From positions 80 through 64,079 of the forward strand of contig JAJYYO010000010.1 of assembly GCA_021800795.1 (NCBI GenBank): a DNA stretch of 64,000 nucleotides. The letters run 5' to 3'. The notes beneath the pieces were generated by a model that made no database searches, was not told where the DNA came from, and saw only the letters and a program-made list of their open reading frames with translations. The DNA is from Pseudomonadota bacterium. GTDB taxonomy: Bacteria > Pseudomonadota > Gammaproteobacteria > Burkholderiales > Gallionellaceae. A program made the position numbers and the translations under genes. Shown here piece by piece: positions 5,671-31,212 of the stretch; position 1 is the first letter of the stretch; every line of letters begins with the position of its first letter.

Positions 5671-6183
5671 ATGAAAAAAGTACAAATGGTTCAAGCAGGG
5701 ATGACACGTGCACGTGTCAACTCGCAACAAGGTTTTACCCTTATCGAATTGATGATTGTCGTGGCGATTATCGGTATTCTGGCCGCGGTTGCGATTCCGA
5801 GTTACCAGAACTATACCCGTAAGGCGGCATACACCGAAGTGATCATGGCTGCCGACCCCTACAAAATTGGCATTGCAGACTGCTTCTCCAGTCTGGGCGA
5901 TTTGGGTTCATGTACCGCAGGCAGTAACGGTGTTCCGGCAGCTATCACTACCGGTTCCGGTGCAGTTGGTTCCATTGCTGTTACAGCGCCAGCCACTGGT
6001 AGTACTTCGTCAGGTGTAATAAAGATTAATGTTATCCCGACAAACAACTACAAAGGCCTTCTAACTGGAGATAATTTTATGATTGATGGAACTATCACCG
6101 CAGCAGGCACTACGAACACCTATAATCTTATCTGGACTACCGATTCAACCAGTGGCTGTCTGACCAAGAACTACTGCAAGTAA
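5671..6183 (+). CDS. pilA: type IV major pilin
   Basis: QQG|[27 protein letters not shown] prepilin cleavage/methylation site, C-terminal Cys pair, RBS caggag. Confidence 0.95.
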
Positions 6184-6225
6184 TGTACTGCCGGGCCTGA
6201 GTGAAAATCTTCAGGTCTGAAACCG

Positions 6226-6255
6226 AACCCCTCCCTTCTCGGGGAGGGGTTTTTT
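6226..6255 (+). terminator. Rho-independent terminator after pilA
   Basis: aacccctccc-ttctc-ggggaggggtt followed by tttt. Confidence 0.8.
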
Positions 6256-6270
6256 CATGAGGGGTGTTTC

Positions 6271-7902
6271 ATGAAGACGCTGCTTAAAAAAAATATTACG
6301 TTTCTGTATATATTGGCCATCCTTGTCGCGGCAGGCGGTCTGTACGGGCGGTTTTTGTCGAGTCCCATCGTCTTTGACGATTTTTACATGTTCGCCGGGA
6401 ACACGCTGGCGGATTACGGACATTCCTATTTTTCCTTCACGCTGCGCTGGCTTCCCTATGCCACTTTGGGCTGGACCTGGAATACCTTCGGCGAAAACCT
6501 GATCTGGTTCCGTCTGGGTAATCTTTTATTGCACGCGGCAACAGCCGTTGCGCTGTTTTTTTTCCTGAACAGCCTGTTCGAGACGGTTTTACCGCAGGAA
6601 AAAGACCGTTTATCCCATGCAGCTTATGCGTTCTTCGGCGCGCTGCTGTTCGCCTTGCATCCGGTCGCAGTTTTTGCCGCAGGGTATCTGGTGGAGCGCA
6701 GCATCGTAATGGCGACGCTGTTCGGCCTGCTGACACTGTATGCCTATCTGCAAGGGCTGCTGCTGAAAAATAACCGCTGGTTCGTCGCCTCGGCCTGCTT
6801 CTATTTTCTCGCGGTGTTCTCCAAGGAACATGCGGTGATGATCCCAGCTGTGGCGCTCGCATTAACTGTATTGGTGGAATCTCCCTCGAAGGCGCTGTTC
6901 AAGCGCATCGCCCTGCCGTTCATATTTTTTGCGCTGATCGGCATTCTGATCATTTTAAAAAGCAAAGGCGTTCTCGGTGCTTCCTACGAGCCTTTTGCGC
7001 TCGATATGCTCAAGGACTTGTCGGATTCCGGAGAAAAAATCGATCGCGCGCAAGCCTATCCGTTGAGCATCGCAACGCAAAGCCTGCTTTTCTTCAAATA
7101 CCTGGGCTTGTGGCTGCTGCCCAACCCGATCTGGATGTCGGTGGATATGCGCGAGCCCTTCGCATCCAGCCTGCTGGACTGGCATTATCTGCTGGCGATG
7201 GCGGGCTTTCTGGCTTATGGCGGTATCGCGTTATGGCTTTTGCTGCAAAGAGGCAAAAAAGGGCTTGCTGGTTTCGCGATGCTGTTCCCCTGGCTGCTGT
7301 TTGCCACGGAGTTTTCCACGGTGCGCATCCAGGAATCCTTCGTGCTTTATCGCAGTTACCTGTGGATGTCAGGCATTTTTGCAGCGCTGCCGGTATTGTT
7401 TTGTCTCGTTTCCGCCCGCAAGGCGGCGATCTGGCTGGTGTTGCTCTGTTTATTCTACGTTCCGCTGTCGCTCGACCGATTGCAGGACTTCTCGAATCCG
7501 CTTTACCTGTGGGACGATGCCGCGCGGCTGGTGGAACGCAAGCAGGATTTGCCCGGCGTGGCAAGAATCTACCATAATCGAGGCATCTCATTTGCCCATG
7601 TATTCATGAAAACGAAAGCGCTTGAGGATTACAACACGGCGTTAAGGCTCAAGCCCGATGACAGTTATACCTATAATGATCGTGGCGCGCTTTTTTACGA
7701 CTGGGGAAAGTATCCTGAGGCGATGCGCGACTTCGACAAGGCGATCTCGCTGGAAGCGGATGTCGGGCATTTTTACTGGGCGCGCGGCAAGGTTTTCGAG
7801 GCGACCGGAGATATGAGCTCCGCCCAAACTAATTACCGGCAGGGTTGCCAGTTAGGCGAAAAACGCGCCTGCGACAAGCTGGCTGGAATGAAGGGCAAGT
7901 AG
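6271..7902 (+). CDS. polytopic membrane protein with C-terminal TPRs; TMTC-like GT-C glycosyltransferase
   Basis: PIVFDD motif after TM1, HPV...ERS, SKEHA, about 10 TM segments, then TPRs (YHNRG, YNDRG, YWARG). Confidence 0.7.
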   Translation: MKTLLKKNITFLYILAILVAAGGLYGRFLSSPIVFDDFYMFAGNTLADYGHSYFSFTLRWLPYATLGWTWNTFGENLIWFRLGNLLLHAATAVALFFFLNSLFETVLPQEKDRLSHAAYAFFGALLFALHPVAVFAAGYLVERSIVMATLFGLLTLYAYLQGLLLKNNRWFVASACFYFLAVFSKEHAVMIPAVALALTVLVESPSKALFKRIALPFIFFALIGILIILKSKGVLGASYEPFALDMLKDLSDSGEKIDRAQAYPLSIATQSLLFFKYLGLWLLPNPIWMSVDMREPFASSLLDWHYLLAMAGFLAYGGIALWLLLQRGKKGLAGFAMLFPWLLFATEFSTVRIQESFVLYRSYLWMSGIFAALPVLFCLVSARKAAIWLVLLCLFYVPLSLDRLQDFSNPLYLWDDAARLVERKQDLPGVARIYHNRGISFAHVFMKTKALEDYNTALRLKPDDSYTYNDRGALFYDWGKYPEAMRDFDKAISLEADVGHFYWARGKVFEATGDMSSAQTNYRQGCQLGEKRACDKLAGMKGK

Positions 7903-7908
7903 ATTTTG

Positions 7909-8107
7909 CTAAGCCATCGCTAGCCTTGCCGGGCCTTGATACTGTGCCACGGTCGCGTCATCAGTCAGCAATGTAATCCCTTCGACCATTGCCTGCGCAA
8001 TCAGCAGCCGGTCGAAGGGGTCTTTGTGTATCGGTGGCAAGACATCAATCGCAACGGTATGCTCACTGAGTATCGGGAGTTCGCAATATCCGTTGTCGAT
8101 CAGCACA
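7909..8107 (-). pseudogene. C-terminal fragment of PIN-domain (VapC-like) toxin
   Basis: LPPIHKDPFDRLLIAQAMVEGITLLTDD; the 5' half is missing and replaced by REP DNA. Confidence 0.8.
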
Positions 8108-8299
8108 GTAGGATGCGGTGACAACCGCATCGCTCACGTCATTCCCCAAGCTGCGTTCATATCGCCACCGCGAACGATGCGGTTGTCACCGCATCCTACG
8201 CCGCATCAACGTACCAACTCCTGTATCTTGCGGTTCGCACCCTGCAGTTTTTTGAACAGCGCCAGCACCGCGAATGATGCGGTTGTCACCGCATCCTAC
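8108..8299. repeat. GTAG-type REP cluster (3 copies)
   Basis: GTAGGATGCGGTGACAACCGCATC at 8108-8131 (+), 8176-8199 (-) and 8276-8299 (-). Confidence 0.9.
8206..8267 (-). pseudogene. displaced duplicate of the last 19 codons of the cNMP-binding protein gene
   Basis: LALFKKLQGANRKIQELVR* versus ...ELIR* at 9084-9145. Confidence 0.85.
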
Positions 8300-8346
8300 C
8301 GGGTTTATATGGCGGTTTTCTTGGTAAAGGGGACGCTACCCTTTTA

Positions 8347-8628
8347 CTATAGCCCCAGCTCACTATGGGAACCGAGCCGCACAAGTCGCATATTGTCGGC
8401 GTCTGGTTTGTGGTAAATCAATACCAGGTCAGGCTTGATGTGGCAGTCGCGGTGATCCTTCCAGTCGCCAGTGAGCGGATGGTCACGAAAACGCGGTTCA
8501 AGAGGTTGATCGTTCGCAAGACAATCTACAACGGGAAACAAGTCATCATCAAGCGAAGAGCGGTGCCGGCCTTTGGCTTCGCGCTTGTAGTCTCGCTTAA
8601 ATTGGCCGGTCCATTCAATCGTCCGCAC
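8347..8628 (-). CDS. yafQ: YafQ-family (RelE superfamily) toxin
   Basis: FKRDYKR, DHPLTGDWKDHRDCHIKPDLVLIY, LVRLGSHSEL. Confidence 0.9.
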   Translation of the reverse strand: MRTIEWTGQFKRDYKREAKGRHRSSLDDDLFPVVDCLANDQPLEPRFRDHPLTGDWKDHRDCHIKPDLVLIYHKPDADNMRLVRLGSHSELGL

Positions 8629-8878
8629 GGAGTGCTTTTTTCAATTCCGCAATACTGTTGGCGCGAGGCAGATTTCCGGCGCGAGCCTCCATCATGGCCG
8701 CAATAGTGACGGCATTGGGAACCAGAGGGTCAAATGGCAGTGCGTGTTCATGTGCAATTCTTGTTAGCAGCATTCGCACTGCATCGGACACAGTGAGACC
8801 CATAGCGGCCAGCACGCTCGCTGCCTCTTCTTTGATGGCTCCATCAATGCGGGTTTGTACCAGTTGGTTTGCAGCCAT
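8615..8878 (-). CDS. dinJ: RelB/DinJ-family antitoxin
   Basis: VQTRIDGAIKEEAASVLAAMGLTVSDAVRMLLTRIAHEHALPFD; overlaps the toxin start. Confidence 0.88.
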   Translation of the reverse strand: MAANQLVQTRIDGAIKEEAASVLAAMGLTVSDAVRMLLTRIAHEHALPFDPLVPNAVTIAAMMEARAGNLPRANSIAELKKALRADD

Positions 8879-8902
8879 GATCACTTCTCCTTGTTAATTT
8901 GA

Positions 8903-8915
8903 ATTACATTGTAAT
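8903..8915. promoter_or_regulatory. palindromic operator upstream of dinJ-yafQ
   Basis: ATTACA-T-TGTAAT. Confidence 0.55.
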
Positions 8916-8985
8916 GCATTGCGAGTGGCAGCACAAACATTGGGACGCAAATTGGGGCGCAATATTGGTAAAGGGGTAAAGCGCG

Positions 8986-9076
8986 GTAGGATGCGGTGAC
9001 AACCGCATCGCTCGCGTCATTCCCCGGTTGAGTTTATATCGCCACCGCGAACGATGCGGTTGTCACCGCATCCTAC
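8986..9076. repeat. inverted REP pair (REPIN-like)
   Basis: Same 24-bp REP at 8986-9009 (+) and 9053-9076 (-); spacer is homologous to the 8108-8199 pair. Confidence 0.9.
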
Positions 9077-9083
9077 TACAGCA

Positions 9084-9599
9084 TCAACGTATCAATTCCT
9101 GAATCTTGCGGTTCGCGCCCTGCAGTTTTTTGAACAGCGCCAGCAGCAGTGCTTTATCCATATAGGATTTGACTGTGGCATTGCTTTGCAATCGCGCGAT
9201 GCCGGTTTTGTCGATTTCTGCAACGATCAGCTCTCCATCGGCGACGACGGTCGCCGAGCGTGAAATGCTTCCGCTGGCAAAGAAAGTCCCCTCGCCTATG
9301 CATTCTCCGCTGACTATTTTACCGACTATTTTTTTGTCGCAGTAAACGGTGACCGTGCCGAACAGCACGACGTAGAAGGTATTTGAATCATCTCCTTCCG
9401 AGGTGAGGCAGTCATTAGCGGTAAATTTGCGGATTTCGGCCTGTTCGGAGATGAGCTTCAGCCATTCGCCGGGAACGGGATCGAAAAAAGAACACTTGCG
9501 TAATTCTCGCAAACGTTCGCTTGCATCGTCGTCAAGGCGCTTGGTGAAATTGGCAAGACTGGCCTCGATGGATAGCATGGCGTCGTCGAAGTTGTTCAT
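9084..9599 (-). CDS. cyclic-nucleotide-binding domain protein
   Basis: FYVVLFGTVTV, GECIGE, RSATVVA; start taken at MNNFDD. Confidence 0.8.
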   Translation of the reverse strand: MNNFDDAMLSIEASLANFTKRLDDDASERLRELRKCSFFDPVPGEWLKLISEQAEIRKFTANDCLTSEGDDSNTFYVVLFGTVTVYCDKKIVGKIVSGECIGEGTFFASGSISRSATVVADGELIVAEIDKTGIARLQSNATVKSYMDKALLLALFKKLQGANRKIQELIR

Positions 9600-9677
9600 T
9601 TTTGTCCCCTGTGCTGATCTATCCGTAATCTGTGCGTAACTTATCACAAGCCGCAACCGGCGTATATTAATTCGCGC

Positions 9678-10352
9678 TCAAACCGCAGTCACGCCTTTCG
9701 GCGAGATAGCTACGCGGTCATCATGAGCTGCCAGTACGCTCATTTTACGCAATACGATTTTCCGGAACCAGCCGCTTGCCAGCAGCGGCTCATCGCTGAT
9801 GACTTCGAGTTCCGGCGTGGCGAGCAAGACTTCCTCGAATACCACATCCATGCGGGTGGCGATGCGGCGAGAGAGAGGGTTAAGCAAGCGGCGCAGGGGC
9901 GCAGATTGCCCGGGCCGCAGGAATTTGTCGAGCAGGATGATGCCGCCGCCGGGCTTCAAGACGCGTGCGGCTTCAGTCAGGCATCGCGCGGGTTCCGGCA
10001 CCACGGCGGTAATCAGGTGCAGCACGACATGGTCGAAGTGCTCGTCGCTAAAGGGTAAGGCCATGCTGTCGCCCAGCACCCAGTCCACCTGCAAATGGGC
10101 GCCGCGAGGGCGGGCTCGGGAGAGCATCGCCGCATTGAAATCGAGCGCGGTATAGTGATGCAGGGCAGGCAAGAAAGGCAGATCCAGACCCGTGCCGACA
10201 CCGCTCAATAACACCTTTCCAGCCGTGTCGACCGGCAAGGCGCGCAGCGATTGTTTGCGCGGTTCTCGCATCGCGCGTTCGATGACGGCATCGTAGATCG
10301 GCGCGATCAGGCTGTAGCTGCTGCGTAACCGGGGATTGCGAAGATAACTCAT
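9678..10352 (-). CDS. class I SAM-dependent methyltransferase (PmtA-like)
   Basis: [34 protein letters not shown]. Confidence 0.8.
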
Positions 10353-11209
10353 GTCGTGTAATCCAGGGCGATGCCGGCGAAGACAGCAGCGCCGAACCAG
10401 TTGTTATGCAGGAATGCCTTGAAGCAGGCTTCGCGGTTTCTGTTTTTGATGAGCGAGTAGTGATACAGCGCGATGGCGGATGCGATTGCCAGTCCGGCGT
10501 AATACAAGCCGCCCAGATGCGCAATTTTACCTGCCCAGGCCAATAATGCCAGCGTCGCGGCATAACAGCCCATCACCGCCGTCACGTCGTATTTGCCGAA
10601 AAACAGCGCCGATGAGTGGATGCCCAGATGAATGTCGTCATCCCTGTCCACCATCGCGTATTCGGTATCGTAGGCGATCGACCAGAACATGTTCGCGCTT
10701 AAAAGTATCCACGCTACAGGCGGTACGGCATTCAGCTGGGCGGCAAAGCTCATCGGGATGCCGAAGCCGAACGCGATGCCCAGATAGGCTTGCGGAATGG
10801 CCAGAAAGCGCTTGGTGAACGGATAGCTGCCGGCCAGAAAGACCGCCGGAACAGACAGCAACAGAGTCAGCGTATTGAGCGGCAGTATCAGCAGGAAGGA
10901 AATAACGGCAAGCGTCGCTGCCAGCCACAAGGCTTCGCGTGGCGTAATGCGTCCGCTGGTGACGGGGCGGTTTTGTGTGCGTTCGACATGACGGTCTATG
11001 TCGCGGTCGGCATAGTCGTTGATCGCGCAACCTGCCGAGCGCATCAGCAGGGTACCCAGCGTAAAGATCAGCACGATGTGCCAGGCCGGTGTGCCGCCGC
11101 CTGCGATCCATATTCCCCACAGCGTCGGCCATAACAAGAGCAGGATGCCGATGGGGCGATTCAGCCGGGTGAGCTGCATATACAGCGATAAGCGTTCAAT
11201 AAAAGTCAT
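10349..11209 (-). CDS. ubiA: 4-hydroxybenzoate octaprenyltransferase
   Basis: [16 protein letters not shown]...[19 protein letters not shown]. Confidence 0.96.
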
Positions 11210-11922
11210 TTCAGGATCGAGGATCGAGGATCGAGGATCGAGGATCGAGCGTGAGGCGGCGCTGTCACACGATCCTCAATCCTCAATCCTAGATTTAATA
11301 TGCCGGGCAAAAACACTTCCGTGACCAGCAGCGGTTTATTGTGCAGATAAAACAGGGATCTGCGCGCCCAAAGCCTGCCAGGCGGATAGGACAATATGCC
11401 AGCTGCGCGCCGGTACAGCGGATGATGCGGGTGCAAGGCCTTGTAATGCAATGGCAGACGGGCAACCATCGGATGCGAGAACAGCAGCGCGCCCAGCGGT
11501 TTGTTGCCAAGGTTGCGCAAACCCTGCCAAGCTCCGCGCAACGCTGTGGCAGCGCAGGCGCTGTGCGCAAATACCACGGGTTGCTTATCGGCGCACAGGA
11601 AAACTTCGCGCGACCAGGCAAGCTGCCTGGTGGCGATCCCCAGCAGTGCCGATTCATCCGGTGCAATGAGCGCCAGGCCGCTCTTCACGTTGCGCACGGA
11701 AAAATGCTCGCAGTGCTGCATAATGCGCTGCGTCAGCGAACCGCGGTCACGCAGCCAGGGCAGCAATTCTGCTCCGGCTCCCAATGTCGCGCTGCTCCAG
11801 AATGTGTCGTTCATGTGAAACTCGCGCAAGCGTTCGTTTGCCTCCTCGCCCTTTGGGAGAGGGTTGGGGTGAGGGAAGCGGGCATCATGGTTTTTATTAT
11901 CAGAGGTTGCATACTTTTTCAT
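11206..11922 (-). CDS. ubiC: chorismate pyruvate-lyase with repeat-derived termini (core may start at 11814)
   Basis: [48 protein letters not shown]. Confidence 0.92.
11214..11290. repeat. inverted heptamer arrays in the ubiC C-terminus
   Basis: (GGATCGA)x5 at 11214-11248 facing gatcctcaatcctcaatcct at 11271-11290. Confidence 0.9.
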
Positions 11923-11930
11923 GCTCGCTA
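11815..11930. mobile_element. family-A element, copy 2 (recG-ubiC junction)
   Basis: gtgaaactcgcgcaagcgttcgtttg...gggagagggttggggtgaggg...attatcag...catgctcgcta; contains the recG stop and an in-frame ATG. Confidence 0.8.
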
Positions 11931-14087
11931 TACGTGCAAATAGTCATGTTTGTTTGCCATCCAGCGATGCAAGTAGCCGCGCGCAGCCTCCGGATAGTCG
12001 CGCAGCAACTGATCGGCGACATCCCTTGCCATGTTCAATAAATCTTCGTCAGTTTCTATATTGGCAAAACGCAACATCGCCATGCCGCTTTGCCGTGCGC
12101 CGAGCAGTTCGCCCGGACCCCGCAATTGTAAGTCCTGTTGGGCAATCGCGAAGCCGTCCGTGTTCTCGAAAATGACTTTCAGGCGTGTACGGGCCAGTTC
12201 GGACAGCGGTTTCTGATAAAGCAGGATGCACAGGCTTTGCGCCGCGCCGCGTCCCACGCGTCCGCGCAACTGATGCAGCTGTGCCAGCCCCATGCGTTCG
12301 GCATGATCGATCACCATCAGGCTGGCATTCGGTACATCCACGCCGACTTCGATGACGGTGGTTGCGACCAGCAACTGGAGTTCGCCGGTCTTGAATGCGG
12401 CCATCACGCGCACCTTTTCGCTGCTGTCCATCTTGCCGTGTACCAGGCCCACGCGCAGTTCGGGGAAAGTCCCGGTGAGCATTTGGTGTGTTTCCAGCGC
12501 ATTTTGCAATTGCAGCACTTCGGATTCGTCGATCAACGGGCACACCCAATAGGCCTGCTGTCCGGTCATGCAGGCGGCGCGCACCCGCTCGAATACCTCG
12601 TCGCGGCGCGCTTCGCTGACCAGTTTGGTAATCACCGGGGTGCGACCCGGCGGCAATTCGTCTATCACCGATACGTCCAGATCGGCGTAATAGCTCATCG
12701 CCAGCGTGCGCGGAATCGGCGTGGCGCTCATCATCAGCTGATGCGGTTCGGCGGATTTAAATTGTTCATCAGGCCGTTCGTGGTGAGCTTGTCGAACCCT
12801 CTGCGCAGTAAATTCATTCCCTTCGACTAGCTCAGGCGGGTGTCCGACCACCAGGTTTATGGGGCGAACGGATTTTTCGGTCTTGCCTTTGGCATGAAGG
12901 GCCAGGCGCTGCTGTACGCCGAACTTGTGCTGCTCGTCCACGATCGCGAGCCCCAGTTTGTGGAAACTGATCTGTTGCTGGAACAGCGCATGCGTGCCGA
13001 TGGCAAGCAGCGTTTCGCCCGATGCGATTTTGTCTGAGGCTACCCGCTTGTCTTTTTTCTTCAGGCTGCCGGACAGCCAGACCGGCGTCACGCCTAGCGG
13101 CGCCAGCCAGTCACCGAGTTTCAGGTAATGCTGCTCGGCCAGAATTTCGGTGGGTGCCATGAAGGCGACCTGATAGCCGTTCTCGATGGCTTGCAAGGCT
13201 GCGAGTGCGGCGACGATGGTCTTGCCGCTGCCCACATCGCCCAGCAGCAGACGTTGCATCGGATGCGGTTTTGCCAGATCGCGGCTGATTTCGCTGAATA
13301 CTTTCTGCTGTGCGCCGGTCAGTTTGAACGGCAGGTTTTTCAGGAGTGCCGCGGTGTAACGGCCCGTCTGTTTGAGAGCAGGCGCCACGCGATTGCTGCG
13401 TTCACGATGATGCACGCGCATCGAGAGTTGCTGGGCCAGCAACTCGTCGAACTTGATGCGTCGCCAGGCGGGATGCGTGCGTTCTTCCAGAGAACTCGCA
13501 GCAATATCCGGCATAGGGTTATGCAGCACATTAAGGCTCTCTGAAAACCCGAGCAAATTCAAGTTGTTGCAAATTTCCTCAGGCAGGTAGTCCGGCGTAG
13601 GCAGCACTTCGAGTGCGTTGGCGATCAGTTTGCGCAACGCGGTTTGCGACAGTCCGGCTGTGGCAGGATATACCGGCGTCAGACTGGTTTGCAACGGTGT
13701 CTCGTCGTTCACCGCACGGCATTTCGGATGCACCATCTCCAGTCCGTAATAACCCATGCGCACCTCGCCGACGGCGCGTATCTGATTATCCACGGCCAGC
13801 AGTTTTGTCTGGCTGGGATAGAAATTAAGAAAGCGCAGATACAGCTCGCCGCTTGCGTCCTGCAGGCGGCAGATCAGCGTGCGGCGCGGGCGGTGGGTAA
13901 TCCCGGCGTGCGTGATGACGCCCTGTACCTGTGCGGTTTCGCCGGGTTCCACGGCCGCAATCGGCGCGAGATGGGTTTCGTCCTCGTAACGGATCGGCAG
14001 ATGCAGCAACAGATCGGCACGATGGTGGATGCCCAGCTTCGCGAGATTCGCCAGCGTGGCAGGAGAGATTTTCGCGGGGGAGGTCAA
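11928..14087 (-). CDS. recG: ATP-dependent DNA helicase RecG
   Basis: GDVGSGKT, DEQH, MSATPIPRT, QLHQLRGRVGRG. Confidence 0.97.
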   Translation of the reverse strand: MTSPAKISPATLANLAKLGIHHRADLLLHLPIRYEDETHLAPIAAVEPGETAQVQGVITHAGITHRPRRTLICRLQDASGELYLRFLNFYPSQTKLLAVDNQIRAVGEVRMGYYGLEMVHPKCRAVNDETPLQTSLTPVYPATAGLSQTALRKLIANALEVLPTPDYLPEEICNNLNLLGFSESLNVLHNPMPDIAASSLEERTHPAWRRIKFDELLAQQLSMRVHHRERSNRVAPALKQTGRYTAALLKNLPFKLTGAQQKVFSEISRDLAKPHPMQRLLLGDVGSGKTIVAALAALQAIENGYQVAFMAPTEILAEQHYLKLGDWLAPLGVTPVWLSGSLKKKDKRVASDKIASGETLLAIGTHALFQQQISFHKLGLAIVDEQHKFGVQQRLALHAKGKTEKSVRPINLVVGHPPELVEGNEFTAQRVRQAHHERPDEQFKSAEPHQLMMSATPIPRTLAMSYYADLDVSVIDELPPGRTPVITKLVSEARRDEVFERVRAACMTGQQAYWVCPLIDESEVLQLQNALETHQMLTGTFPELRVGLVHGKMDSSEKVRVMAAFKTGELQLLVATTVIEVGVDVPNASLMVIDHAERMGLAQLHQLRGRVGRGAAQSLCILLYQKPLSELARTRLKVIFENTDGFAIAQQDLQLRGPGELLGARQSGMAMLRFANIETDEDLLNMARDVADQLLRDYPEAARGYLHRWMANKHDYLHV
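12774..12871. repeat. palindromic element in frame in recG
   Basis: ccgttcgtggtgagcttgtcgaacc...ccttcgactagctcagg...gcgaacgg, read as PELVEG...VRQAHHER. Confidence 0.85.
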
Positions 14088-30948: not shown

Positions 30949-30972
30949 CAAACCCCGCTCCGGCGGGGTTTG
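30949..30972 (+). terminator. terminator after groEL
   Basis: caaaccccgc-tccg-gcggggtttg. Confidence 0.75.
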
Positions 30973-30981
30973 TCATTTGTA

Positions 30982-31009
30982 TTGCTGTTCTCGGTAAAGT
31001 AGGTATAAT
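30982..31009 (+). promoter_or_regulatory. sigma-70 promoter of tRNA-Phe
   Basis: TTGCTG-N16-TATAAT. Confidence 0.6.
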
Positions 31010-31065
31010 GCGCGGCTCTCAAGCTTGAAAGCGTTGTTTTCAGGTGCTTGCAGAATGTTAAAAAT

Positions 31066-31141
31066 GGCCTGGTAGCTCAGTCGGTAGAGCAGAGGATTGA
31101 AAATCCTTGTGTCGGTGGTTCGATTCCGCCCCGGGCCACCA
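31066..31141 (+). tRNA. tRNA-Phe (GAA)
   Basis: 76-nt cloverleaf; anticodon arm aggat-tGAAa-atcct, GGTTCGATTCC T-arm, encoded CCA. Confidence 0.97.
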
Positions 31142-31212
31142 AATAAATAAAAGGCTTGCAGCGATGCAGGTCTTTTTGCTTTTCTACAATTGCAGATGTT
31201 TTTCTACAATTC

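What the first reader, a model, noticed from the sequence alone, without database searches (positions are those of the whole stretch)
8108..9145. DinJ-YafQ module delivered with a replacement C-terminus for its neighbour gene
A 160-bp block (REP pair plus the last 19 codons of the cNMP-binding gene) occurs twice, 878 bp apart (8108-8267 and 8986-9145). The coding parts differ by 3 synonymous changes and 1 I/V change. The intact TA operon lies between them, bracketed by a 12-bp direct repeat ttggtaaagggg (8321-8332 and 8965-8976). The displaced terminus starts right at a REP arm with microhomology. Inference: a REP-bounded piece from a diverged relative integrated at the gene end and swapped in its own terminus. 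This is a cargo-carrying and younger parallel of the ftsW/murG/metK cassettes.
Basis: partly seen in the sequence, partly recalled or inferred. Interest (0 to 1): 0.7.

Follow-up and report, generated by a model that had tools for sequence, protein, structure and literature searches.

The report
Dead gene-end copy at REP hotspot
Between a cyclic-nucleotide-binding gene and a pilin island, this Gallionella-like genome keeps a dead second copy of the gene's last 19 codons plus a hairpin repeat, with a toxin-antitoxin pair in between; it is the scar of repeat-driven recombination at a spot where related strains keep reshuffling small modules, not a new mobile cassette.

Summary
A 160-166 bp block (last 19 codons of the cNMP-binding gene, a spacer and a REP doublet) occurs twice, 878 bp apart and about 92% identical, around an intact dinJ-yafQ pair. 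An independent 66-kb metagenome contig is 100% identical across it. A second, diverged strain (L042) has the same dead copy with the same REP-edge junction, so this is neither an artefact nor recent.

The cassette reading is only partly supported. Close strains show at least five architectures at this locus. The TA pair occurs without the dead terminus on its downstream side (L013/L014/L015), with a different upstream flank (L024, L042), or away from the cNMP gene (L040). One lineage (L025) has no TA here. The 12-bp "bracket" is the arm of a second REP family. The TA unit and the terminus copy are found nowhere else in the genome. No integrase is present.

The REP belongs to a small family (about 15 copies) whose related variants flank a genuine RAYT on contig C27.

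Best reading: one illegitimate joint at the exact inner edge of a REP arm, combined with homologous exchange between alleles, left the former gene end stranded. This is ordinary hotspot plasticity and of moderate-to-low interest.

The parts
7909..8103 (-). Remnant of a vapC (PIN) toxin gene: the last ~64 of 128 codons, cut off by the outer edge of REPIN A.
   Evidence: Pfam PIN, E = 0.0016. 98% identical to the longer fragment in L013. Full-length relatives are 128 aa.
8102..8205 (.). REPIN A: REP arm 8108-8138, loop 8139-8168, inverted REP arm 8169-8199, with 6-nt outer flanks.
   Evidence: Inverted repeat I6, 94% complementary. Folds at -39.6 kcal/mol, z = -8.4.
8203..8267 (-). Dead copy of the last 19 codons plus stop of the cNMP-binding gene (psi-terminus).
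   Evidence: The same relic with the same junction is in L042.
8269..8301 (-). Solo REP arm (Rf'). Its inner edge ...CGTTCGCGGT is fused to codon -19 of the dead terminus; this is the one illegitimate joint.
   Evidence: The same arm with the same outer flank is joined to a different sequence (U126) in L024.
8302..8322 (-). 'seg' (gaaaaccgccatataaacccg): conserved outer flank of the solo REP arm.
   Evidence: 98% identical over 56 nt to L024 6959-7014, where it lies upstream of the TA.
8323..8346 (-). Hairpin of a second REP family (REP-2, AAAGGG-N7-CCCTTT) just after the yafQ stop. It contains 9 of the 12 nt of the downstream 12-mer.
   Evidence: The same hairpin flanks the RAYT pseudogene on C16 and the C20 copy; 15 copies in the genome.
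8347..8628 (-). yafQ toxin gene, 93 aa, GTG start.
   Evidence: PF15738, 2e-31. TIGR02385, 5e-26.
8615..8884 (-). dinJ/relB antitoxin gene (87 aa from the ATG at 8878); overlaps yafQ by 14 nt.
   Evidence: PF04221, 6e-20. TIGR02384, 3.5e-21.
8885..8979 (-). TA upstream region with a palindromic operator-like sequence and the upstream 12-mer (8965-8976, a half REP-2 arm).
   Evidence: Homology with L024/L042 runs through the 12-mer.
8980..9082 (.). REPIN B, starting 7 nt after the live stop codon. Its loop centre (aaactcaacc) was seen in no other strain's allele (only in the window and the identical contig L026).
   Evidence: Inverted repeat I5, 97% complementary. Folds at -40.5 kcal/mol, z = -10.3. 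Loop comparison.
9084..9599 (-). Live cNMP-binding gene (171 aa); its last 19 codons are 9084-9145.
   Evidence: PF00027, 8e-13. Identical to P0122.

Best explanation
The spacer between the core gene block recG-ubiC-ubiA-methyltransferase-cNMP and the variable TPR/pilin island is a recombination hotspot. It is built from two REP families and small selfish modules: dinJ-yafQ, a decayed vapC and, in other strains, orf81 and MITE-like repeats.

In an ancestor of the window and L042 alleles, one illegitimate joint fused the exact inner edge of a solo REP arm lying downstream of dinJ-yafQ (...CGTTCGCGGT|) to codon -19 of the cNMP gene. On the other side, the exchange was completed by ordinary homologous recombination, either in the gene body or in REP copies of another allele or sister chromosome. 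The result is [gene body - live end - REPIN - TA - REP-2 - seg - REP arm | old end - REPIN - vapC remnant]. The old gene end with its REPIN was left stranded as a relic.

Shown: the structure, its presence in two diverged alleles, the single shared junction, and the separability of TA and relic. Inferred: the order of events and the catalyst, which could be RecA plus microhomology joining, a template switch at a stalled hairpin, gyrase or RAYT.

The TA pair is a long-term resident of this hotspot, about 96-99% identical across strains. It is not cargo of a self-mobile cassette.
For: The structure is real and reproducible. The same REP-arm|codon -19 junction occurs in L042, whose dead copy differs at 3/60 nt and whose flanks differ (U126 instead of loop plus arm upstream; no vapC downstream). 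L042's dead block shares the 'gtagcacg' spacer and a 21-nt REP deletion with the live block of L023, so the dead block is allelic to a live gene end. The same 'seg + REP arm' is followed by U126-TA in L024 but by the dead terminus in the window and L042, so the REP inner edge is a recurrent breakpoint. The outer REP edge abuts vapC at three different truncation points: L013 long, window short, L042 none. TA alleles are 95.9-99.2% identical against a core identity of 98-100%, so the TA is as old as the strain divergence. TA occurs without the relic in L013/14/15 and in L040. L025 has no TA at this site. No integrase lies between or beside the repeats. The TA unit and terminus copy are single-locus in the genome.
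Against: No allele with both flanks visible shows the plain empty state (gene - REPIN - vapC/TPR); L023 ends inside the REPIN loop. Direction cannot be proven, meaning which copy was resident. The live copy looks more like other live termini than the dead one does, which is also expected if the event is old or if gene conversion occurs between copies. The L023/L042 shared deletion could itself be gene conversion. Contigs are short, and the strains are mixed in the metagenomes. Reads could not be examined.
Confidence: 0.5

Rival explanations
1. Purely local two-step origin. First, a ~108-bp tandem duplication of [last 65 nt + spacer + REP arm] arose by slippage or template switching at the REP hairpin. 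Later, the TA segment was inserted, or moved, between the two REP arms by REP x REP homologous recombination. On this reading the terminus duplication and the TA are unrelated events.
For: It needs the same single illegitimate joint. TA and relic are separable in the population. REP arms in direct orientation flank the TA segment. The 6.7% divergence between copies is compatible with neutral drift since before the window/L042 split.
Against: No allele shows the 108-bp tandem form without the TA. The two spacers derive from the long ancestral spacer by different deletions (5 nt versus 8 nt). Both dead copies share GGT, which is absent from every live close allele, so the copies look like two allelic lineages rather than a copy of the resident end.
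Confidence: 0.25
2. An 878-bp REP-bounded, RAYT-mobilised (or circle-forming) cassette carrying dinJ-yafQ plus its own copy of the gene end integrates at the cNMP 3' end and replaces the terminus. This would be analogous to e14/phage 21 at icd, but without an integrase.
For: The geometry is exactly that of a Campbell-type insertion with a ~160-bp attL/attR made of the gene end; e14 leaves a 163-bp pseudo-icd (PMC6379469). The unit's right end is a REP hairpin edge. A RAYT of the related REP family is intact on C27.
Against: The unit is not conserved: the TA flanks differ between strains on both sides. The genome holds no second copy. No RAYT is flanked by this exact REP. The 12-bp 'bracket' is a REP-2 arm. 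The event is old, not recent.
Confidence: 0.12
3. Assembly artefact: collapsed or chimeric strain variants joined at REP repeats.
For: The metagenomes contain several co-existing strains, and short contigs break at REPs.
Against: The REP arms (31 nt) are shorter than the assembler k-mer implied by the contig names (k141). The two copies differ by 8%. An independent 66-kb contig is identical. L042 independently shows the same order with its own SNPs.
Confidence: 0.03

Closest known systems
REP/REPIN-RAYT systems (Bertels & Rainey 2011, PMC3116915; PMC3337134) and REP sequences at the join-point of tandem duplications (Shyamala, Schneider & Ames 1990, PMC551756, cited from the reference list of PMC7661048)
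   Same: GTAG-headed hairpins occur as inverted doublets just after stop codons. A RAYT gene is flanked by related REPs. A REP sits exactly at the novel joint of a direct duplication.
   Different: The family is very small (about 15 copies, a third of them at this one locus). The joint links a REP edge to the inside of an ORF rather than REP to REP. Whether RAYT, gyrase or replication made the joint is unknown.
Homology-facilitated illegitimate recombination (one homologous anchor plus one microhomology joint; the term is used in PMC8116780 and PMC6382021, and the classic Acinetobacter/pneumococcus work is from my own knowledge)
   Same: One side of the rearrangement is homologous (gene body or REP) and the other is a 1-2 nt microhomology joint. 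This accounts for a foreign or allelic segment entering with duplication of the overlap.
   Different: Not demonstrated here. Competence of this organism and the donor allele are unknown.
e14 / phage 21 integration into icd, with a prophage-borne replacement 3' end and a 163-bp pseudo-icd (PMC6379469)
   Same: A live gene end is followed by an insert and then a diverged, dead copy of the same gene end of almost the same length (160 versus 163 bp). The differences are mostly synonymous.
   Different: There is no integrase, no conserved element, no att core and only 0.7 kb of unique sequence between the two copies (878 bp copy-to-copy); the insert content varies between strains.
Type II toxin-antitoxin DinJ-YafQ (RelB/RelE superfamily)
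   Same: Antitoxin-first overlapping pair with full-length matches to YafQ_toxin and RelB/DinJ models.
   Different: Activity is untested. The pair sits in a TA-rich hotspot next to a decayed vapC.

Membership tests
REP/REPIN-RAYT system | Short palindromic hairpin with a conserved 5' GTAG head | tested here: met
   GTAG + GATGCGGT-GACA-ACCGCATC at 8108, 8199(-), 8299(-), 8986 and 9076(-).
REP/REPIN-RAYT system | Inverted doublets (REPINs) that fold as long hairpins | tested here: met
   Two doublets fold at -40.5 and -39.6 kcal/mol, z = -10.3 and -8.4.
REP/REPIN-RAYT system | Dispersed extragenic copies in the genome | tested here: met
   About 15 family copies on C22, C27, C29, C48, C55 and C57, plus degenerate ones on C12 and C9. 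This is low for a REP family.
REP/REPIN-RAYT system | Cognate RAYT gene flanked by the same REP | tested here: inconclusive
   C27:11666-12202 matches NF047646 (206 bits, cut-off 80). It is flanked by GTAGGATGTGGTGAGGCACGAACCGCATC, a variant with the same head and stem that pairs with the exact REP in the REPINs on C48. No RAYT is flanked by the exact 24-mer.
Type II TA DinJ-YafQ | Adjacent small antitoxin and toxin genes with family-level matches above the cut-off | tested here: met
   PF15738 108 bits (cut-off 30). PF04221 71 bits (22.4). TIGR02384 75 bits (45.65). 14-nt overlap.
Type II TA DinJ-YafQ | Toxicity neutralised by the antitoxin | not testable with these tools
   Needs expression in a laboratory E. 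coli strain.
Integrase-driven island with replacement gene end (e14/phage 21-icd type) | Element-encoded site-specific recombinase | tested here: not met
   Only dinJ and yafQ lie between the repeats. The neighbours are a TPR/GT-like gene, a pilin gene and a methyltransferase.
Integrase-driven island with replacement gene end (e14/phage 21-icd type) | Direct repeats made of the gene's 3' end at both element borders | tested here: met
Integrase-driven island with replacement gene end (e14/phage 21-icd type) | Same element with the same ends in other strains, and a clean empty site | tested here: not met
   Flanks and content differ among L013, L024, L042, L043 and L040. No clean empty site was seen.
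Self-mobile REP-bounded cassette (IS200/IS605-like or PATE-like) | Several copies of the unit at different sites in one genome | tested here: not met
   The TA unit and the terminus copy hit only this locus in G000.
Hairpin mini-cassettes noted at metK/ftsW/murG in this window (earlier AI notes, unverified) | X...X'-TTTC-[GNA hairpin]-AAAA junction at a GAAAA target | tested here: not met
   The joint here reads ...GCATCATTCGCGGT|GCTGGCGCTG. The hairpin is a GTAG-type REP with a GACA loop, and there is no TTTC/AAAA frame (description taken).

The most novel reading that the evidence does not exclude
The REP arms of this small family may act, together with the C27 RAYT, as precise single-strand recombination sites, in the manner of attC sites. 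They would shuffle short modules (dinJ-yafQ, orf81, a gene-end fragment) and chew into neighbouring toxin genes at one chromosomal platform. What I observed: three different partners at the identical inner edge CGCGGT|, three at the edge |TGAACGCAGC, and stepwise vapC truncation at the outer edge.
Probability: 0.12. Interest if true: 0.7.

Novelty: new member of a known kind. Interest (0 to 1): 0.3.

Why it matters
The locus is a clear natural example of how REP hairpins and toxin-antitoxin modules pile up at the boundary between a core gene block and a variable pilin island. It also shows how a gene can keep a working end while an older end is stranded as a relic, without any integrase.

It corrects the idea that this locus is a cargo-carrying version of the gene-end cassettes seen elsewhere in the window. 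The junction chemistry and the repeat family are different.

The recurrent use of exact REP edges as breakpoints gives a concrete, testable substrate set for the genome's RAYT. On present evidence, though, the locus is ordinary hotspot plasticity.

Tried and rejected
- Species-level relatives in GTDB: only one genome (G071 = L021, 'uncultured Gallionella sp.') has an orthologous cNMP gene, 84% aa identical. It has no REP or TA after the gene. The other relatives are too distant.
- Metagenome DNA pattern scan for the terminus: it returned only 72-73% relatives and one known contig.
- Look-ups of the L024 YafQ and the L013 DinJ: nothing new.
- Searching the assemblies behind L023/L024/L042 for their missing flanks: the records are not held.
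- Searching for spurious ORFs spanning the relic in other assemblies: no hits.
- Joining L043/L044 (left flank) to L013/L014/L015 (right flank) into one allele: rejected. The overlaps are only 97.6-99.4% identical, so these are different strains.
- Using the outgroup to polarise the four A/B differences: the split is 2:2 with L021 and other outgroups disagree, so it is not decisive.
- A mosaic breakpoint in the cNMP gene or upstream core: none is visible at this sampling.
- The 12-mer as a target-site duplication: rejected.

Full report
**Observation**

The region reads, on the + strand:
- TPR/GT-like gene, 6271-7902 (+)
- vapC (PIN) remnant, 7909-8103 (-)
- REPIN A: arm 8108-8138, loop, inverted arm 8169-8199
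- dead copy of the last 19 codons of the cNMP-binding gene, 8203-8267 (-)
- a third, solo REP arm, 8269-8299
- a 21-nt segment 'seg'
- a small hairpin, 8323-8346
- yafQ 8347-8628 (-) and dinJ 8615-8878 (-)
- the TA upstream region
- REPIN B, 8986-9076
- the live cNMP gene, 9084-9599 (-)

The repeat 8102-8267 / 8980-9145 is 91.9% identical over 161 columns. It is unique to this locus in the 3.2-Mb genome. The coding parts differ by three synonymous changes and one I/V change. The 12-mer is at the stated coordinates.

**Not an artefact, and not recent**

Contig L026 (66 kb, ENA assembly ERZ27237044) is 100% identical to window 6084-12599. Contig L042 (ERZ27236847) comes from a different strain; its cNMP gene is 99.0% identical and ends ..ILELIR. 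L042 has the same order: live end - REP arm - TA - hairpin - seg - REP arm | dead end - REPIN. The REP-arm|codon -19 joint is identical. L042 nonetheless differs from the window in four ways:
- a 126-bp block (U126) replaces the loop plus second arm upstream of the TA;
- an 11-bp insertion lies after the small hairpin;
- the REP arm next to the dead end carries a 21-nt internal deletion;
- there is no vapC remnant.

The two dead copies differ from each other at 3/60 nt and from their own live copies at 4/60. The live genes differ by only 1%. The joint therefore arose once, before these strains split.

**What the repeats are**

The palindrome is a typical REP: a GTAG head and an 8-bp stem GATGCGGT/ACCGCATC. 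Its doublets fold at about -40 kcal/mol. It is a low-copy family. Seven exact copies exist in the genome, five of them here, with about 15 copies counting variants. On C48 and C57 the exact REP is paired in REPINs with the variant GTAGGATG(T/C)GGTGAGGCACGAACCGCATC. Tandem copies of that variant flank an intact REP-associated tyrosine transposase at C27:11666-12202 (NF047646, 206 bits). A family-level cognate RAYT does.

The small hairpin after yafQ belongs to a second REP family, AAAGGGG-CGCT-ACCCTTT. That family flanks the RAYT pseudogene on C16 and the C20 copy. Nine of the 12 nt of the 'bracketing' direct repeat are this hairpin's arm. The upstream 12-mer lies inside sequence that belongs to the TA unit in L024 and L042 as well. 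The downstream copy is interrupted in L042. So the 12-mer is not a target-site duplication.

**Population comparison**

The organism is Gallionella-like. The nearest species-level genome is an 'uncultured Gallionella sp.' MAG with the cNMP protein 84% identical. That MAG keeps ubiC-ubiA-MT-cNMP synteny and then has unrelated genes, with no REP and no TA.

Within the 90% protein cluster of the cNMP gene, four C-terminal variants exist..ELIR..ELVR..ILELIR and ..ELSKR. The contexts are listed below in gene orientation.

| Contig(s) | Arrangement |
|---|---|
| L025/L022 (~93% core identity) | The last three codons are replaced by the end of a dispersed repeat. Then orf81, bracketed by a ~150-nt MITE-like direct repeat, one REP arm, and a divergent TPR/pilin island. 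No TA. |
| L024 | End - orf81 - seg+REP arm - U126 - dinJ-yafQ - another hairpin |
| L043/L044 | End - long spacer - complete REPIN - TA |
| L023 | End (..ELVR) - 'gtagcacg' spacer - REP arm with the 21-nt deletion - loop, then the contig ends |
| L013, L014/L015 | yafQ - REP-2 hairpin - a solo REP unit starting at TGAACGCAGC - (in L013) a vapC fragment 130 bp longer than the window's. No seg, no solo arm, no dead terminus. |
| L040/L041 | TA 95.9% identical, embedded in REP-2 copies, 72 bp from a divergent TPR/pilin island and not next to the cNMP gene |

The core recG-to-MT region is 98-100% identical among the window, L023 and L024. The TA alleles are 95.9-99.2% identical. The TA has therefore been at this hotspot for as long as the strains have been diverging.

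The insert has no constant ends, there is no integrase, and the genome holds no second copy.

The 'displaced terminus' idea does have real support. The dead block of L042 and the live block of L023 share two rare markers, the 'gtagcacg' spacer and the 21-nt REP deletion. A block that is dead in one strain is therefore allelic to a live gene end in another. Gene conversion between the two copies could mimic this. The SNP pattern is mixed: the live copy B is 1 nt from other live ends, while the dead copy is 3-4 nt away, and both dead copies share GGT, which is seen only in the outgroup. That mix fits an old event plus occasional conversion.

**Mechanism**

Whatever the order of events, exactly one non-homologous joint is required. 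It links the inner REP edge ...CGTTCGCGGT to GCTGGCGCTG at codon -19, with 1-2 nt of overlap. Everything else can be produced by homologous exchange in the gene body, in the 160-bp block or in the 31-33-nt REP arms.

The same inner edge is joined to the REPIN loop, to U126 or to the dead end in different places. The unit edge TGAACGCAGC has three different left partners. The outer edge sits at three different vapC truncation points.

I therefore read the locus as REP-edge-prone illegitimate recombination combined with inter-allelic homologous recombination (confidence 0.5). The rivals are:
- a local 108-bp tandem duplication followed by REP x REP insertion of the TA (0.25);
- a genuinely mobile cassette or circle (0.12);
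- an assembly artefact (0.03).

The catalyst is not identified. It could be RAYT, gyrase at REP (both from the literature) or a template switch at a stalled hairpin.

**Comparison with known systems**

- The geometry equals e14/phage 21 at icd, which leaves a 163-bp pseudo-icd (PMC6379469), but no recombinase and no conserved element are present here.
- REP at a duplication join-point was described by Shyamala et al. 1990 (PMC551756, cited).
- REPIN/RAYT biology follows Bertels & Rainey (PMC3116915).
- Earlier notes of this scan on other genomes reached similar 'hotspot' verdicts for TA pairs bracketed by REP plus gene-end copies.
- The metK/ftsW/murG cassettes noted in this window have a different junction frame as described there, so this is not shown to be a parallel of them.

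**Verdict**

This is a new member of a known kind: a REP-associated rearrangement at a TA-rich hotspot. Interest is 0.3.

Noticed in passing
G000 contig C57:29315-31180 (outside the window): Two tandem pseudopilin-like paralogues are each followed by a REPIN of the same family, 881 bp apart. The second REPIN abuts a truncated VapC N-terminal fragment (30968-31180, -). This is a second case of this REP family cutting a PIN toxin gene.
   Followed up: partly
G000 contig C48:28296-30350 (outside the window): cheA is flanked on both sides by identical ~88-nt REPINs, each made of one exact REP arm and one variant arm.
   Followed up: partly
G000 C27:11666-12202; C30:12478-12995; C16:54283-54950; C20:5470-5720: There are at least three RAYT loci with three different REP families. 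C27 is intact with tandem REP variants downstream. C30 is intact with GTAGGGTGGATAAAG-type REPs. C16 has one in-frame stop and REP-2 flanks. C20 is a contig-end copy.
   Followed up: partly
L025 6500-7400 and L022 1920-2198 (related lineage): The last three codons of the cNMP gene are replaced (..QELSKR*) by the end of a dispersed repeat (gtcatttcgagcaaagcgagaaatc). orf81 (coiled-coil, 81 aa) is bracketed by a ~150-nt direct repeat that is itself a multi-copy MITE-like element in G000.
   Followed up: partly
window 7909-8103: The vapC remnant belongs to a 128-aa VapC family that is 85-94% identical across Acidithiobacillus, Ferrovum and Burkholderiaceae MAGs, so it is a highly mobile TA.
   Followed up: partly
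window 8102-8138: REPIN copy A differs from copy B and from L013 by three CpG-to-TpG changes (cgcgct to tgtgct; cgcgagc to cgtgagc). This may reflect deamination at methylated sites.
   Followed up: no
window 8228-8247 and 9106-9125 (+ strand): The antisense of the cNMP terminus, in both copies, scores as a weak terminator-like hairpin followed by T6, facing the convergent TPR/pilin operon.
   Followed up: no
L040 4600-5640 (JGI 3300037810): In a related lineage the same TA sits in a cluster of at least five REP-2 hairpins with ~70-nt spacer units that resemble 'seg'. This looks like a BIME-like array.
   Followed up: no
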